Assembly (NCBI GenBank): GCA_046045965.1
Contig: JBJOKS010000039.1
Span: 1-36,068 of the forward strand
Length of the DNA: 36,068 nucleotides
Direction of reading: 5' to 3'
Source: Cyanobacteriota bacterium
GTDB lineage: Bacteria; Cyanobacteriota; Cyanobacteriia; Cyanobacteriales; Nostocaceae
Under the pieces are notes generated by a model. The model was not told where the DNA came from. It ran no database searches and worked only from the letters and a program-made list of their open reading frames with translations. Numbering within the stretch: position 1 is the stretch's first letter; each line of letters opens with the position of its first letter. This document shows positions 14,031 to 23,217 of the stretch, one piece after another. The position numbers and the translations under genes were made by a program.

Positions 14031-14399
14031 TGGGAGTGGAGGGACTTGAACCCTCACGACCGTTTAAGGTCAACGGATTTTCATTCTCTTGCAGCTTTCA
14101 CTACTACCTTACAGGTTTTGAGAATTGGACTCTCCCTTTACCCTCGCCTTTACGTTAGGGTAGCTCCCGTCGAGTCTCTGCACCTTCCCGGAATTTTAAC
14201 TTTGGGATTTTGAATTCTTGAATTTTGCTTTTCAGTCAAAAATCAAACTTCAACTCTAAAGCTTCTGGGCTTGGCTCAGGATTGCCATATCTGTAAACAG
14301 AGTTAGGTTTCCCTGAATTTGAGAGCTTCCACTTGAAAGATTTCTCAATCAAGGCTCAGTTTTCTAAGTCCGTAGCGTCTACCATTCCGCCACACTCCC
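14031..14399 (-). tRNA. trnL: tRNA-Leu(UAA), split by a group I intron (exon 1: 14399-14366; exon 2: 14081-14031)
   Basis: Exon 1 GGGAGTGTGGCGGAATGGTAGACGCTACGGACTT joins exon 2 AAAATCCGTTGACCTTAAACGGTCGTGAGGGTTCAAGTCCCTCCACTCCCA to give an 85-nt cloverleaf with UAA anticodon and long variable arm. CCA is not encoded. Confidence 0.98.
14082..14365 (-). ncRNA. Group I self-splicing intron (IC3 type, 284 nt, no ORF) in trnL-UAA
   Basis: Inserted after U34 and ends in G (...GAGAATG). Conserved cores AATTCAGGGAAACCT (P), AATCCTGAGCCAA (Q), GTGCAGAGACTCGACGG (R) and AAGGGAGAGTCC (S). Confidence 0.97.
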
Positions 14400-19893: not shown

Positions 19894-19910
19894 AGAAATG
19901 GTATTTTTCT

Positions 19911-20150
19911 TTAAGCAGCACAATCTTTAAATATGCGCTCATCTGTTGTGATTGAGTTGCTATATTTGCTTAAATCTTTTGGTTTTGACTGTGCATTTGG
20001 TTTAACTAAAAATTCTTCCATTCCTGGAATTTCTAATTGGTGGAATGTGTTTTGATTTTCTTGACTCAGAACCGATATATTTTCAACGGCTTTTAGATTA
20101 ATCGGGGTGGTTTCTGTGGTTGTTGAAGATTCAGCAATAAATTTTTCCAT
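19911..20150 (-). CDS. Small hypothetical protein, possibly 5'-truncated
   Basis: 79-aa hydrophilic ORF with an internal QLEIPGMEEF motif that is echoed around its start. Confidence 0.45.
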   Translation of the reverse strand: MEKFIAESSTTTETTPINLKAVENISVLSQENQNTFHQLEIPGMEEFLVKPNAQSKPKDLSKYSNSITTDERIFKDCAA

Positions 20151-20445
20151 CCCTGGTAAAGTTTAGTATTCAAAGTGCATTCCCAGAACATAAAAATCAA
20201 ACATATAAGTTAAAGGCTTTATTATTAAACATCTGATAATGATGAGATTAATTTCTAAATAATCCAAATAAAAGCATTGACAGCATTTAGTAAGATAAAA
20301 AAATTGTTTAATAACTAACTTTTTTGAGCTTTTGTATTCAAATTGCCATATTTTTACAGATAAAACCCAAGTAATAAGAAAAACTACTTTTTGTAATGCC
20401 AATATTTTGATTTGGTAAAGTTTCTCAGTAAGTAGGTTGATAGAC

Positions 20446-20473
20446 TTGACACAGGTTCTAACAGTAGTAAAAT
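20446..20473 (+). promoter_or_regulatory. Sigma70-type promoter for mgtE
   Basis: TTGACA (20446-20451), 16-nt spacer, TAAAAT (20468-20473); implies a 5' UTR of about 270 nt. Confidence 0.6.
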
Positions 20474-20489
20474 TTCGACATCAAAGAAA

Positions 20490-20750
20490 AATCAAGGCAG
20501 CAGATACAGACCAGTGTACAATACCACCAACATGACACATTGTTGCTAGGTGGCTATCCGATAACGCAGTGTGGCTTGAGCCATTCAACCCATTCCGGGT
20601 TAGGATGATAAATTAACGATGACTTGATTAAATATCAATATAGAGTTCTTGAAATTTTATGGACAAAAGTCCACCAGATGGCAGTAGTATCCTCCCCTAA
20701 GCTGGCGAAATAGTCTCCCAGCGAGGGGGAGACATTAGGAGGAATTTATT
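20490..20750 (+). promoter_or_regulatory. Structured mgtE 5' leader, candidate riboswitch/attenuator
   Basis: Closing helix 20490-20499/20620-20629, internal hairpins, a 13-codon uORF, and alternative helices involving the SD AGGAGGA (20737-20743). Confidence 0.5.
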
Positions 20751-22100
20751 ATGCTCACGCAAGATGTTCGGAATTCTTTGGATATTGCCGACTTAAATAA
20801 GTTAAAATGTGATTTAAATCGCCTGCAACCAGTGGATGTGGGTGAATACATCTCAGAATTGCCTGAAAAACAAAGGGCGATCGCATTTCGTTTACTTAAC
20901 AAAGATCAAGCTATTGATGTCTTTGAATATTTACCTACAGAAGTACAAGAAGAACTGATCAATTCTCTCCATGATGTGCAAGTAGTACATCTTGTAGAAG
21001 AAATGAGTCCTGATGAAAGGGCATACTTATTTGATGAACTACCAGCGGGAGTAGTCAAAAGACTATTACAACAACTTAGTCCTGAACAAAGACAAGCTAC
21101 CGCGACAATTCTCGGTTATCCTGAAGGAACAGCGGGAAGGGTCATGACAACGGAATATGTGCGCTTGCGTCAAGGTTTGACTGTGGGTGAAGCCTTAAGT
21201 AAAATTCGTCTGCAAGACGAAGATAAAGAGACAATTTACTATGCCTACGTCACCGATGATAATCGTAAATTAGTTAGTGTTGTTTCCCTGCGTCAGTTGT
21301 TATTTACTTTTCCCGAAGTCTTAATTAAAGATATTGCCAGTTCCCACGTCGTTAAAGTCAGAACTGAAACTTCCCAAGAAGAAGTAGCTCGCATTATGCA
21401 GCGTTACGACTTAATTGCTATGCCTGTGGTGGACAGAGAAGATCGATTAGTTGGTATTATTACCATTGATGATGTCGTCGATATTTTAGAAGAAGAAGCC
21501 ACAGAAGACATTCAAAAATTGGCGGGGGTAAGTGGTGATGAAGAAGCTTTGTCTCCTCCCCATGTCACAATTCGTAAACGGTTGCCTTGGTTATTGGGTA
21601 TTATGGGATTGTATATAGGTGCGGCTAGTGCGATCGCTCCCTTTCAACAAGTCATTGCTGCTGTACCAGTCCTCGCTGTAATTATGCCGATATTTTCTAA
21701 CACTGGGGGGACTGTAGGTATTCAAGCTTTAACCGTAACAATTCGCGGTTTAGGTGTAGGGGAAGTTACAGCAGAAGATACTGGTAAAATTCTTCGCAAA
21801 GAACTTTTAGCAGGTTTAGGAACAGCCATTGCATTAGCTGTGACAATGATCGCCCTTTCCCTTATTTGGGCGAAACCGCAAGAAAGATGGGTAGCTTTAA
21901 TTGCCGGAACGGTGATGGCAACGAATACAATGGTGGCGGTAAGCTTGGGAACTTTGCTACCAATGGGATTACAAAGACTAAAATTAGATCCAGCTTTAAT
22001 GAGTGGTCCATTAGTAACCACAATGCTAGATACCATTGGTTTTGTCACCTTCCTGAGCATGGTTTCTATCGCTTTGAAAGTATTTAATTTACCAACGTAA
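20751..22100 (+). CDS. mgtE: Magnesium transporter MgtE
   Basis: MgtE N-domain, YPEGTAGRVMT, CBS pair (PVVD...RLVGIITIDD), RLPWL, GGTVGIQA and DPALMSGPLVTT.LD motifs. Confidence 0.97.
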   Translation: MLTQDVRNSLDIADLNKLKCDLNRLQPVDVGEYISELPEKQRAIAFRLLNKDQAIDVFEYLPTEVQEELINSLHDVQVVHLVEEMSPDERAYLFDELPAGVVKRLLQQLSPEQRQATATILGYPEGTAGRVMTTEYVRLRQGLTVGEALSKIRLQDEDKETIYYAYVTDDNRKLVSVVSLRQLLFTFPEVLIKDIASSHVVKVRTETSQEEVARIMQRYDLIAMPVVDREDRLVGIITIDDVVDILEEEATEDIQKLAGVSGDEEALSPPHVTIRKRLPWLLGIMGLYIGAASAIAPFQQVIAAVPVLAVIMPIFSNTGGTVGIQALTVTIRGLGVGEVTAEDTGKILRKELLAGLGTAIALAVTMIALSLIWAKPQERWVALIAGTVMATNTMVAVSLGTLLPMGLQRLKLDPALMSGPLVTTMLDTIGFVTFLSMVSIALKVFNLPT

Positions 22101-22102
22101 AA

Positions 22103-22219
22103 TTTGGTAATTGGTGATTGGTGATTGGTAGTGGATGATGATTCATGATTACTGATGAACAATTACCTAAACAATCCCAAATCCAAAATCTAAAATTTAA
22201 AATCTAAAATCTAAAATCT
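22103..22219. repeat. STRR arrays (TTGGT[A/G]A)n and (AAAATCT)n between mgtE and pyrB
   Basis: Tandem heptamers at 22103-22130 and about 22173-22219. Confidence 0.8.
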
Positions 22220-22221
22220 CA

Positions 22222-23217
22222 ATGCCTACAACTACTTGGACTCGTCATCATATTCTTTCTCTCGCTGACTTCACAACGGCTGAATATAACGCGGTTCTGC
22301 AAACTGCGGCTTCATTTAAAGAGGTACTATCACGTAGAACTAAAAAAGTACCCACTTTACAGGGACAAGTGGTGGCAAATTTATTTTTTGAACCTTCTAC
22401 CCGCACCCGGAGTAGTTTTGAAATAGCTGCAAAAAGGTTAAGTGCAGATACTTTGAATTTTGCTGCGGCTACATCTTCCATGACTAAAGGAGAGACAATT
22501 TTAGATACTGCCAAAACCTATTTAGCGATGGGTACTGATATTATGGTGATCCGCCATAAAGAAGCAGGAGTACCCCAGGCGATCGCCCAAGAAATGGATC
22601 GTTTAGGTGAAAAAGTCAGCGTTTTAAATGCAGGTGATGGACAACATGAACACCCATCTCAAGGATTACTAGATTTATCTACAATTTGTAGTTTAATTAA
22701 TCCCGAAAAACCGAGAATTGAACTATTAGAAGGTAAAAAAATCGCCATTGTTGGTGATATTTTACATTCTCGTGTAGCCCGTTCTAATATTTGGAGTTTA
22801 ACCGCCAGTGGTGCAGAAGTCCATCTCGCTGCACCTCCTACATTATTACCTAAATTCTTTGCTGAATATTTACAAGGTACAGCAAATGCAGAACGTTTAT
22901 TTATCCATTGGCAACTAGAACCAGCTTTAGAAAATGCTGATTTTGTGATGACATTGCGTTTGCAAAAAGAACGGATGACAGCCCATTTATTACCCAGTTT
23001 AAGGGAATATCATCAACTATTTGGAATTACTAGAAGTAAGTTAAAACTCTGTAAACCCAACGTTAAAGTTTTGCATCCAGGTCCAGTAAATCGAGGTGTA
23101 GAAATTAGTTCAGATTTAATGGATGATCCTGAATTTAGTTTAATTCAAGATCAGGTAACTAGCGGTGTAGCTGTGAGAATGGCTTTGTTATATTTTATTG
23201 GTGGTGGTAAGGGATAA
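22222..23217 (+). CDS. pyrB: Aspartate carbamoyltransferase catalytic subunit
   Basis: [42 protein letters not shown] and [11 protein letters not shown] motifs. Confidence 0.99.

What the first reader, a model, noticed from the sequence alone, without database searches (positions are those of the whole stretch)
20490..20750. Riboswitch-like architecture in the long mgtE 5' leader that is not a recognisable M-box
Seen: a near-consensus promoter (TTGACA-N16-TAAAAT) lies about 280 nt before mgtE. AATCAAGGCA (20490-20499) pairs at 9 of 10 positions with TGACTTGATT (20620-20629), closing a ~140-nt domain with internal hairpins (20524-20553, 20572-20583, 20587-20601). Downstream are two mutually exclusive folds. 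Fold A: CTCCCC 20692-20697 with GGGGAG 20726-20731 plus GCTGG/CCAGC, leaving the SD free. Fold B: GTCTCCC 20713-20719 with GGGAGAC 20727-20733, freeing TCCTCC(CC)TAA 20690-20700 to pair with TTAGGAGGA 20735-20743 and bury the SD. Established: Mg2+ transporter genes are often controlled by leader RNAs (M-box/ykoK, Salmonella mgtA leader). Inference: a possibly undescribed cyanobacterial Mg2+/metal-responsive translational switch.
Basis: partly seen in the sequence, partly recalled or inferred. Interest (0 to 1): 0.72.

Follow-up and report, generated by a model that had tools for sequence, protein, structure and literature searches.

The report
Leader-peptide switch before cyanobacterial mgtE
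In front of a magnesium-channel gene, many cyanobacteria keep a tiny 13-codon reading frame built into two competing RNA folds, so a ribosome reading the tiny frame, rather than a metal-binding riboswitch, probably decides whether the channel is made.

Summary
The promoter and the two competing 3' folds are real. The riboswitch reading is not supported. No Rfam riboswitch matches. The 5' 'aptamer' hairpins are poorly conserved, and the closing helix is chance-level in the window alone and limited to Nostocales. In 146 distinct homologues the first in-frame stop lies at codons 10-18 in 143, against 29 and 25 in the other frames; all three stop codons are used. The element travels with one mgtE clade: 35 of 35 genomes in a 150-genome sample. 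ON and OFF folds are nearly equal in energy, and the OFF fold buries the mgtE start region more in 126 of 134 homologues. Best model: an untranslated or early-aborted uORF leaves the ON fold; a ribosome reaching codons 9-13 flips it, and on release the OFF fold forms. This resembles enterobacterial MgtL/CorL/MgtQ but has no Rho and no shared sequence. Translation, Mg2+ sensing, polarity and start sites are inferred, not shown. Not found in my literature searches.

The parts
20446..20473 (+). Distal sigma-70-type promoter-like site, TTGACA-16-TAAAAT; would give a leader of about 270 nt. Nostocales-type leaders only
   Evidence: 11/12; the same pattern found upstream in 51 of 97 elements; start site not mapped
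20490..20499 (+).
   Evidence: at least 9 of 10 pairs in 16 of 48 long leaders vs about 6.5% in shuffles; chance-level in the window alone
20601..20606 (+). Proximal -10-like hexamer TAGGAT; would give a leader of about 135-140 nt holding the whole core
   Evidence: T, A, A, T of the hexamer kept in at least 90% of 74 sequences; a TA-NN-(A/C)T hexamer 40-85 nt before the uORF in 129 of 146, peaking at 50-53 nt; in non-Nostocales often preceded by TTGTGN at 17 nt (read by eye); start site not mapped
20617..20637 (+). Hairpin H0, near the 5' end of the short transcript; covaries in the family but is degenerate (4 of 7 pairs) in the window
   Evidence: 43 compensatory cells, 0 of 500 shuffles as high; 76.9% of cells paired
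20659..20700 (+). 13-codon uORF (leader peptide MDKSPPDGSSILP); family consensus M-D-x-S-P-x-x-x-S-x-x-L-L/P
20660..20673 (+). Hairpin H1 over uORF codons 1-5 (UGGAC-N4-GUCCA)
   Evidence: five core pairs kept in 72-74 of 74 sequences, one-sided changes only, no compensatory change
20680..20698 (+). uORF codons 8-13 = anti-AUG plus anti-SD strand (OFF fold); its 3' part is also the 5' arm of the ON outer helix
   Evidence: in the hairpin-B ensemble U20693-A20740 pairs with P 0.97 and U20752 of the mgtE AUG is paired with P 0.95; AGUA/UGCU 98.6% paired in the alignment
20692..20731 (+). ON fold (fold A): 20692-20698 with 20725-20731, and 20701-20705 with 20718-20722; SD free
   Evidence: 11 of 21 pairs with compensatory changes, H1 included in the 21; 0 of 500 shuffles
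20713..20733 (+). Hairpin B (GUCUCCC/GGGAGAC); forms when the uORF end is covered, frees the anti-SD; no U tract, so not an intrinsic terminator
   Evidence: 96.5% of cells paired, 4 of 7 pairs with compensatory changes; not among the terminator-like sites; ribosome scan
20737..20743 (+). Shine-Dalgarno sequence of mgtE (AGGAGGA)
   Evidence: sequence; conserved
20751..22100 (+). mgtE, 449-aa Mg2+ channel; second codon CTN completes the anti-AUG pairing
   Evidence: codon 2 is CTN in 146 of 151 loci (not deduplicated) vs 43% of other Leu codons in these mgtE genes

Best explanation
A uORF-operated translational attenuator of mgtE. (1) Shown by comparison: a 13-codon uORF is kept as a reading frame, and its codons 8-13 are the strand that can pair with the mgtE SD and AUG. 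(2) Computed: with no ribosome, the RNA folds during transcription into the ON fold, which ties up the anti-SD; ON and OFF are close in energy but separated by a barrier of about 18 kcal/mol. (3) Computed under an assumed footprint: a ribosome at codons 1-7 leaves ON intact, while one at codons 9-13 melts it and lets hairpin B form; on release the freed strand reaches OFF over a far lower barrier than ON. (4) Inferred: completing the uORF switches mgtE off, and failing to start or aborting in the first codons (Asp2, Pro5, hairpin H1) leaves it on. (5) Inferred from the regulated gene and from MgtL/CorL/MgtQ: low Mg2+ weakens ribosomes, fewer finish the uORF, and more MgtE is made. My odds: uORF actuates the switch 0.8; Mg2+ or ribosome stability is the signal 0.65; completed translation means OFF 0.6.
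For: First stop at codons 10-18 in 143 of 146 elements, vs 29 and 25 in the other two frames; stops TAA 68, TAG 41, TGA 37; starts ATG 141, GTG 2, TTG 2, CTG 1. The A of the AUG faces a non-pairing base in 81 of 146 and is still kept. Only 1 of 146 has a stop before codon 10, though column frequencies of the 113 13-codon members would give about 5 stops at codon 3 and 11 at codon 6. AUG-to-anti-SD spacing: 12 of 18 deviations are multiples of 3, vs 2 of 54 in the non-coding spacer just downstream. Where the usual stop is lost, another in-frame stop lies within a few codons. Two of the three length outliers (L196, L201) precede fragmented mgtE genes. ON-fold covariation. Median G(B)-G(A) 1.6 kcal/mol; opening SD plus AUG costs 4.1 vs 8.4 kcal/mol, more in B in 126 of 134. 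After release: 3.3 kcal/mol to OFF vs 13.7 to ON in the window, lower to OFF in 121 of 134. Hairpin-B probability at most 0.02 with the P site at codons 1-7, 0.32 at 8, at least 0.95 at 9-13. Strict link to one mgtE clade. No Rho in the genome. Precedents: PMC8092293, PMC11552253, bioRxiv 10.1101/2021.02.02.429294.
Against: No translation, expression or Mg2+ data. The peptide is only loosely MgtL-like: 4 of residues 2-7 are D/E/P in the window but in only 17 of 146 elements (3 in 84), and Asp2 is Gly in 15. Almost every change in codons 2-5 keeps hairpin H1, so RNA structure alone could explain them. L189 and L190 (read by eye) have a frameshifted peptide without Ser-Pro. The uORF start sits in a hairpin and has an SD-like triplet in only 42 of 79 Nostocales and 14 of 67 other elements. 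OFF-fold covariation is weak (6 of 17 pairs, 27 of 500 shuffles) and the anti-AUG helix never covaries. At equilibrium the free window leader is 98-99% ON, so OFF needs a kinetic trap. A ribosome sitting on the uORF end also frees the SD, which would give the opposite polarity. My element finder required an NTG start, so start-less copies would be under-counted. Homologues are kin, so counts overstate independent events.
Confidence: 0.6

Rival explanations
1. Same parts, opposite polarity (MgtQ-like): the resting mature mRNA is OFF, and a ribosome dwelling on codons 9-13 or the stop holds the anti-SD/anti-AUG open so that mgtE is translated. Low Mg2+ lengthens the dwell.
For: With a ribosome at the stop the SD is cheap to open (0.8 kcal/mol in the window). 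The stop always falls on or next to the anti-SD. In Salmonella a start-codon mutation of mgtQ lowers mgtB translation (PMC8092293 section 10). B is the more stable ensemble in at least a quarter of homologues (lower quartile -2.25 kcal/mol).
Against: It leaves the covarying ON fold without a clear job. ON forms first in a growing transcript and dominates the free ensemble in the window. No conserved C-terminal arrest residues beyond codons fixed by pairing.
Confidence: 0.17
2. A ligand-binding riboswitch (Mg2+ or another cation) whose aptamer is the 5' domain or H0/H1; the uORF is incidental.
For: Long leader with a conserved promoter; closing helix enriched in Nostocales with some compensatory variants; covarying H0 and invariant H1; an unexplained conserved single-stranded motif about 21 nt before the uORF.
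Against: No Rfam match at E up to 10. The 5' domain is absent outside Nostocales and its interior is variable. None of these helices overlaps the ON/OFF strands, so there is no switching path. Frame, stop and indel patterns need translation to explain them.
Confidence: 0.08
3. The uORF switch is real but senses something other than Mg2+ (general translation capacity, Ser- or Pro-tRNA, EF-P, temperature, nucleotide pools), or a trans-acting protein or sRNA gates uORF initiation at H1 or the -21 motif.
For: Ser4, Pro5 and Ser9 are nearly invariant, with AGT codons. H1 shows no compensatory change across cyanobacteria, as expected of a sequence-specific site. pyrB follows mgtE in 26 of 52 loci with enough flank.
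Against: The Ser and Pro codons are accounted for by H1 and the anti-AUG pairing. The element was found only before mgtE, never before amino-acid or pyrimidine genes directly, and is single-copy in the own genome.
Confidence: 0.12
4. No switching: the folds and uORF only set a fixed low level of MgtE synthesis.
For: No condition-dependent data exist here. A hairpin next to an SD lowers initiation in any case (general knowledge).
Against: Two exclusive folds of near-equal energy are both conserved over many families, which a fixed damper would not need.
Confidence: 0.03

Closest known systems
MgtL leader peptide of mgtA, and CorL of corA (E. coli, Salmonella)
   Same: Short uORF in the leader of a Mg2+ importer, set in two exclusive folds; efficient uORF translation represses the gene (PMC11552253 abstract and part 1 of 2 of the discussion). 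MgtL begins MEPDPT (bioRxiv 10.1101/2021.02.02.429294 passages), so acidic residue 2 and Pro5 match M-D-x-S-P.
   Different: Those leaders act on transcription elongation, through Rho for corA and Salmonella mgtA; here Rho is absent, there is no terminator, and the output is pairing to the SD and AUG. No Rfam match to the mgtA leader model. The D/E/P density of MgtL is reached in only 17 of 146 elements. The target is an MgtE channel.
MgtQ uORF controlling mgtB translation (Salmonella mgtCBRU)
   Same: uORF with Asp2 overlapping competing stems that hide or free the RBS of a Mg2+ transporter; translation-level output; better uORF translation lowers downstream translation (PMC8092293 introduction, section 10 and discussion).
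   Different: MgtQ is 8 codons, intergenic in an operon, and works through a relay of four stem regions; its start codon is needed for mgtB expression. Here the uORF is 13 codons in a 5' leader and is itself the anti-SD and anti-AUG; Glu5 is replaced by Pro5. No sequence similarity seen.
M-box / ykoK riboswitch (RF00380), which controls mgtE in Bacillus (recalled)
   Same: Sits before mgtE and is presumed to serve Mg2+ homeostasis.
   Different: No match in the window or the genome, with positive controls ringing in B. subtilis and L. lactis. No conserved aptamer and no terminator.

Membership tests
M-box/ykoK riboswitch (RF00380) | Match to the covariance model at the gathering score | tested here: not met
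mgtA Mg sensor, NiCo and yybP-ykoY riboswitch families in Rfam | Match to the covariance model | tested here: not met
   scan of 20200-20900 against all 4227 families at E up to 10 gave 7 weak, unrelated hits, none a riboswitch
Metal-ion riboswitch of a new class | Conserved aptamer present in all members and overlapping the expression platform | tested here: not met
   5' domain limited to Nostocales and variable inside; H0 and H1 do not overlap the ON/OFF strands
Metal-ion riboswitch of a new class | Direct ion-dependent refolding of the naked RNA | not testable with these tools
   needs in-line probing or SHAPE
MgtL/CorL-type leader-peptide attenuator | Conserved short uORF in the 5' leader of a Mg2+ importer | tested here: met
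MgtL/CorL-type leader-peptide attenuator | uORF overlaps mutually exclusive RNA folds | tested here: met
MgtL/CorL-type leader-peptide attenuator | N-terminal D/E/P-rich ribosome-destabilising motif (4 of 6 residues, criterion) | tested here: inconclusive
   met in the window and in 17 of 146 elements; 3 of 6 in 84; Asp2 in 128 and Pro5 in 142, but confounded with hairpin H1
MgtL/CorL-type leader-peptide attenuator | Output by control of transcription elongation, Rho-dependent in corA and Salmonella mgtA | tested here: not met
   no Rho above cut-off in the 92%-complete genome; no intrinsic terminator in the leader
MgtL/CorL-type leader-peptide attenuator | Sequence homology to a curated leader-peptide family | tested here: inconclusive
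MgtL/CorL-type leader-peptide attenuator | uORF translation rises with Mg2+ and is inversely related to transporter expression | not testable with these tools
   needs reporters or ribosome profiling
MgtQ-type translational switch | uORF-overlapping stems hide or free the RBS of the downstream Mg2+ transporter | tested here: met
   computed only:
MgtQ-type translational switch | Asp2 and Glu5; intergenic position in an operon | tested here: not met
   residue 5 is Pro in 142 of 146; the element lies directly after promoter-like sites

The most novel reading that the evidence does not exclude
This is a ribosome-operated attenuator in cyanobacteria, a phylum without Rho and for which a 2016 survey found no reliable data on attenuation (PMC4833913). 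It works as a kinetic ratchet: one completed round of uORF translation locks the mRNA off by pairing the uORF's own codons with the mgtE SD and AUG. Its Met-Asp-x-x-Pro start, shared with MgtL, would be a minimal Mg2+-sensing nascent-peptide motif that arose or persisted across phyla.
Probability: 0.35. Interest if true: 0.75.

Novelty: new variant of a known kind. Interest (0 to 1): 0.62.

Why it matters
Mg2+ is central to chlorophyll, Rubisco activation and ribosomes (general knowledge), yet I found no description of how cyanobacteria regulate mgtE expression. This element gives a compact, mutable 100-nt candidate in many cyanobacterial families. It would extend 'the ribosome as Mg2+ sensor' beyond enterobacteria and supply an attenuation mechanism in a Rho-less phylum. 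One start-codon mutation separates the main models, and the part could serve as a translational control element for cyanobacterial engineering.

Tried and rejected
Rfam at gathering and E-value thresholds: no riboswitch. Intrinsic terminator in the leader: none. A strict Nostocales-type DNA pattern matched 17 of 17 family genomes but only 6 of 283 others, five of them not beside mgtE and one (L031) without an mgtE hit in its locus; it was too narrow, and the covariance model replaced it. First energy survey with automatically picked hairpins showed a gain of more than 2 kcal/mol in only 38 of 97 elements, with some hairpins mis-assigned; redone with alignment-mapped pairs. One search had off-by-one probes for the ON inner pair and the anti-SD pair, so its barrier and those probabilities were discarded and redone; its ON-outer, hairpin-B and ribosome-scan values are correctly indexed. 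RNAalifold did not predict H0; H0 rests on the named-structure count. A longer 20-codon uORF from an AUG 21 nt upstream: open with a start in 32 of 67 non-Nostocales but in 2 of 79 Nostocales, so rejected as the general start. Start-site evidence: the PCC 7120 dRNA-seq paper was not held under the id I recalled; supplements of the Nodularia and Fischerella papers had no mgtE or magnesium entry. Sequencing runs: one metatranscriptome held one 134-nt piece over the element of L052, a single contig that shows neither start nor level. pyrB as the true target: follows mgtE in only 26 of 52 loci. Korolev 2016 does not mention magnesium or mgt genes. The main text of the 202-genome cyanobacterial RNA-structure screen has no mgt, magnesium, uORF or K06213; its supplement could not be read and may list this region.

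Full report
Observation. The window holds mgtE at 20751-22100 (Pfam MgtE_N, CBS and MgtE; TIGR00400 at 396 bits against a cut-off of 233). It aligns with solved MgtE 2yvx and keeps the Asp that I recall as the Mg2+-binding D432. It is the only mgtE found in the genome at E 1e-50; a CorA is also present. The promoter-like site is the best of 13 in the region. Fold A is the MFE of the 3' 76 nt (z -2.66), and fold B lies 0.8 kcal/mol above it. The 5' domain is weaker: z -1.0, its closing helix is matched by 39 of 150 shuffles, and the whole leader has z -1.6. Rfam has no riboswitch here, and the M-box model finds nothing in the genome while ringing in two controls.

What is conserved. The leader matched 30 of 36 other genomes of the family, mostly over window 20592-20758. 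Of 130 loci with a located mgtE start, 109 had the motif (97 distinct). The 21 without it were 17 distant MgtE proteins (46% identity or less) and 4 at 67-72%. One of these four, L107, appears by eye to have lost everything between H0 and the SD when set against L204. A covariance model of 74 sequences hit 38 of 150 genomes of the order, 30 of 150 of the class and one place in the own genome. In the same 150 genomes MgtE splits into a group at 70% identity or more (35 genomes, own included) and a group at 47% or less. The model hit 34 of the 35; the 35th, G097, has a 13-codon copy read by eye. The four extra hits precede fragmented genes of the same clade. Five family genomes without the element have only distant paralogues, or in one case a copy lacking its 5' third. 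Every hit inspected lay before an mgtE of this clade, except one orphan copy 1.3 kb upstream of an intact one in G049. L193 and L194 (weak model hits, upstream of mgtE) and L190 were left out of the counts because my scripts did not locate their start.

The uORF is under selection as a frame. Among 146 distinct elements the first stop is at codons 10-18 in 143, against 29 and 25 in the other frames; 113 have exactly 13 codons; stops are TAA 68, TAG 41, TGA 37; starts are ATG 141, GTG 2, TTG 2, CTG 1. The A of the AUG has no pairing partner in 81 elements and is kept. Codons 3 and 6 vary freely: their column frequencies among the 113 would give about 5 and 11 stops. Those 113 have none by selection, so the fair count is 1 stop before codon 10 in all 146. 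Of 128 elements where the anti-SD could be anchored, 110 have it 33 nt from the AUG and 12 of the 18 deviations are multiples of three; in the adjoining non-coding spacer only 2 of 54 deviations are. When the usual stop is lost, another lies nearby in frame. The outliers are L201 (5 codons) and L196 (25), both before broken mgtE genes, and L192 (18). Limits: kin are not independent, and my finder required an NTG.

The peptide matters less than the frame. Asp2 (128 of 146), Ser4 (140) and Pro5 (142) are conserved, but these codons also form hairpin H1, and substitutions such as Asp to Gly keep it through G-U pairs. H1 shows no compensatory change, unlike the other helices, so its sequence is constrained beyond pairing; that fits a peptide, a start context or a binding site. 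The criterion for ribosome-destabilising sequences (4 D/E/P in 6 residues) is met in the window but in only 17 of 146. L189 has a frameshifted peptide.

The switch. The ON fold has compensatory changes at 11 of 21 pairs (H1 included), above all 500 shuffles and all slid controls. The OFF set is 93.5% paired with weaker covariation (6 of 17 pairs, 27 of 500 shuffles). OFF also buries the mgtE AUG (P 0.95 in the window). This would explain the near-invariant AGUA in the uORF and why mgtE codon 2 is CTN in 146 of 151 loci against 43% of other Leu codons, although that helix never covaries. For 134 of the 146 elements (8 had no located start, 4 too few mapped pairs) the median G(B)-G(A) is 1.6 kcal/mol, and opening SD plus AUG costs 4.1 in A and 8.4 in B, more in B in 126. 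In a growing transcript the ON helices appear first. With an assumed footprint of -12 to +15 nt, hairpin B is absent at codons 1-7 and dominant from codon 9. The ON-OFF barrier is about 18 kcal/mol; from the post-release state it is 3.3 to OFF and 13.7 to ON in the window, and lower to OFF in 121 of 134. These are nearest-neighbour estimates at 37 C, not measurements. There is no terminator and no Rho, so the output should be translational.

Transcripts. A -10-like hexamer about 50 nt before the uORF is present in 129 of 146 elements (window 20601-20606), followed by the covarying hairpin H0. Outside Nostocales nothing upstream of it looked conserved. Nostocales add the distal promoter (51 of 97 elements by a strict pattern) and a 5' extension whose arm can pair with the H0 strand: at least 9 of 10 pairs in 16 of 48 against about 6.5% in shuffles (3 of 51 not scored). 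No start site could be checked.

Mechanism. Most likely, a ribosome that completes the uORF flips the RNA from ON to a trapped OFF state, and failure to initiate or early abortion leaves it ON. Mg2+ limitation as the cause of failure is inferred from the regulated gene and from MgtL, CorL and MgtQ. The main rival has the opposite polarity, with a ribosome dwelling on the anti-SD keeping mgtE open; one start-codon mutant decides between them.

Comparison and novelty. It works like MgtL/CorL in logic and like MgtQ in output, but fails membership of either as defined (no Rho-type output, no Rfam match, different position and residues). What I saw of each paper: PMC8092293, outline, introduction, section 10 and discussion; bioRxiv 10.1101/2021.02.02.429294, 12 passages; PMC11552253, abstract and part 1 of 2 of the discussion; PMC4833913, part 1 of 4 and passages; PMC12873609, term searches of the main text, supplement unreadable; PMC4734099 and PMC10710835, passages; PMC3610870 and PMC5580265, supplement term searches only. 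Ten library searches listed no paper describing a cyanobacterial mgtE uORF; I judged most listings by title and abstract start. Subscription papers and the unread supplement could hold it. Earlier notes of this scan describe similar leader switches before mgtE in Clostridia and Dehalococcoidia, some starting Met-Asp/Glu-x-x-Pro. They are unchecked AI notes, I did not test them, and none matched this sequence.

Verdict. A real, widely conserved, apparently undescribed cis-element; a new variant of uORF-based control of Mg2+ importers, not a riboswitch. Interest 0.62.

Noticed in passing
window 14109-14375 (-): Group I intron (RF00028, 86 bits); by recall the usual cyanobacterial tRNA-Leu(UAA) intron.
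   Followed up: no
window 20638-20648; L094, L097, L098, L100, L103, L150 and others, 21 nt before the uORF AUG: Conserved single-stranded motif like ATGTTGAATT at a nearly fixed distance (offset -21 in 49 of 79 Nostocales and 39 of 67 other elements). It opens an in-frame 20-codon uORF in 32 of 67 non-Nostocales, but the frame is closed in 63 of 79 Nostocales. Degenerate in the window; role unexplained.
   Followed up: partly
L006, L011, L015, L025 and others, just upstream of the proximal -10 (window about 20575-20600): Nostocales-specific inverted repeat like ACCGGA-N7-9-TCCGGGT where a -35 box would lie; could be an RNA hairpin of the long leader or a regulator site. Only the 3' arm is kept in the window.
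   Followed up: no
window 22222-23217; L059-L120: pyrB-like gene (OTCace domains) follows mgtE, and does so in 26 of 52 loci with enough flank. Short AAATCT-type repeats lie between the two genes in the window (22180-22220).
   Followed up: partly
L162, L167, L196, L201, L158: mgtE of this clade is fragmented or interrupted in G135, G054, G112, G171 and G154 while the leader persists; the uORF has decayed in L196 and L201.
   Followed up: partly
L200:733 and L200:2079 (G049): Two copies of the element 1.3 kb apart; the first is not followed by an mgtE match, the second precedes an intact mgtE.
   Followed up: partly
L055 and L056 (G023): Two mgtE genes of this clade in one genome, each with its own element; the second has a divergent 17-codon uORF.
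   Followed up: partly
L107 upstream of mgtE, compared with L204:200-435: Apparent natural deletion of the whole uORF switch that leaves the promoter-like site, H0 and SD; would predict unregulated mgtE (by eye).
   Followed up: partly
window about 19910-20151 (-): Short open frame of about 80 codons diverging from the mgtE promoter; single-copy in the genome and not conserved in the fetched loci beyond a 45-nt piece in L002.
   Followed up: partly
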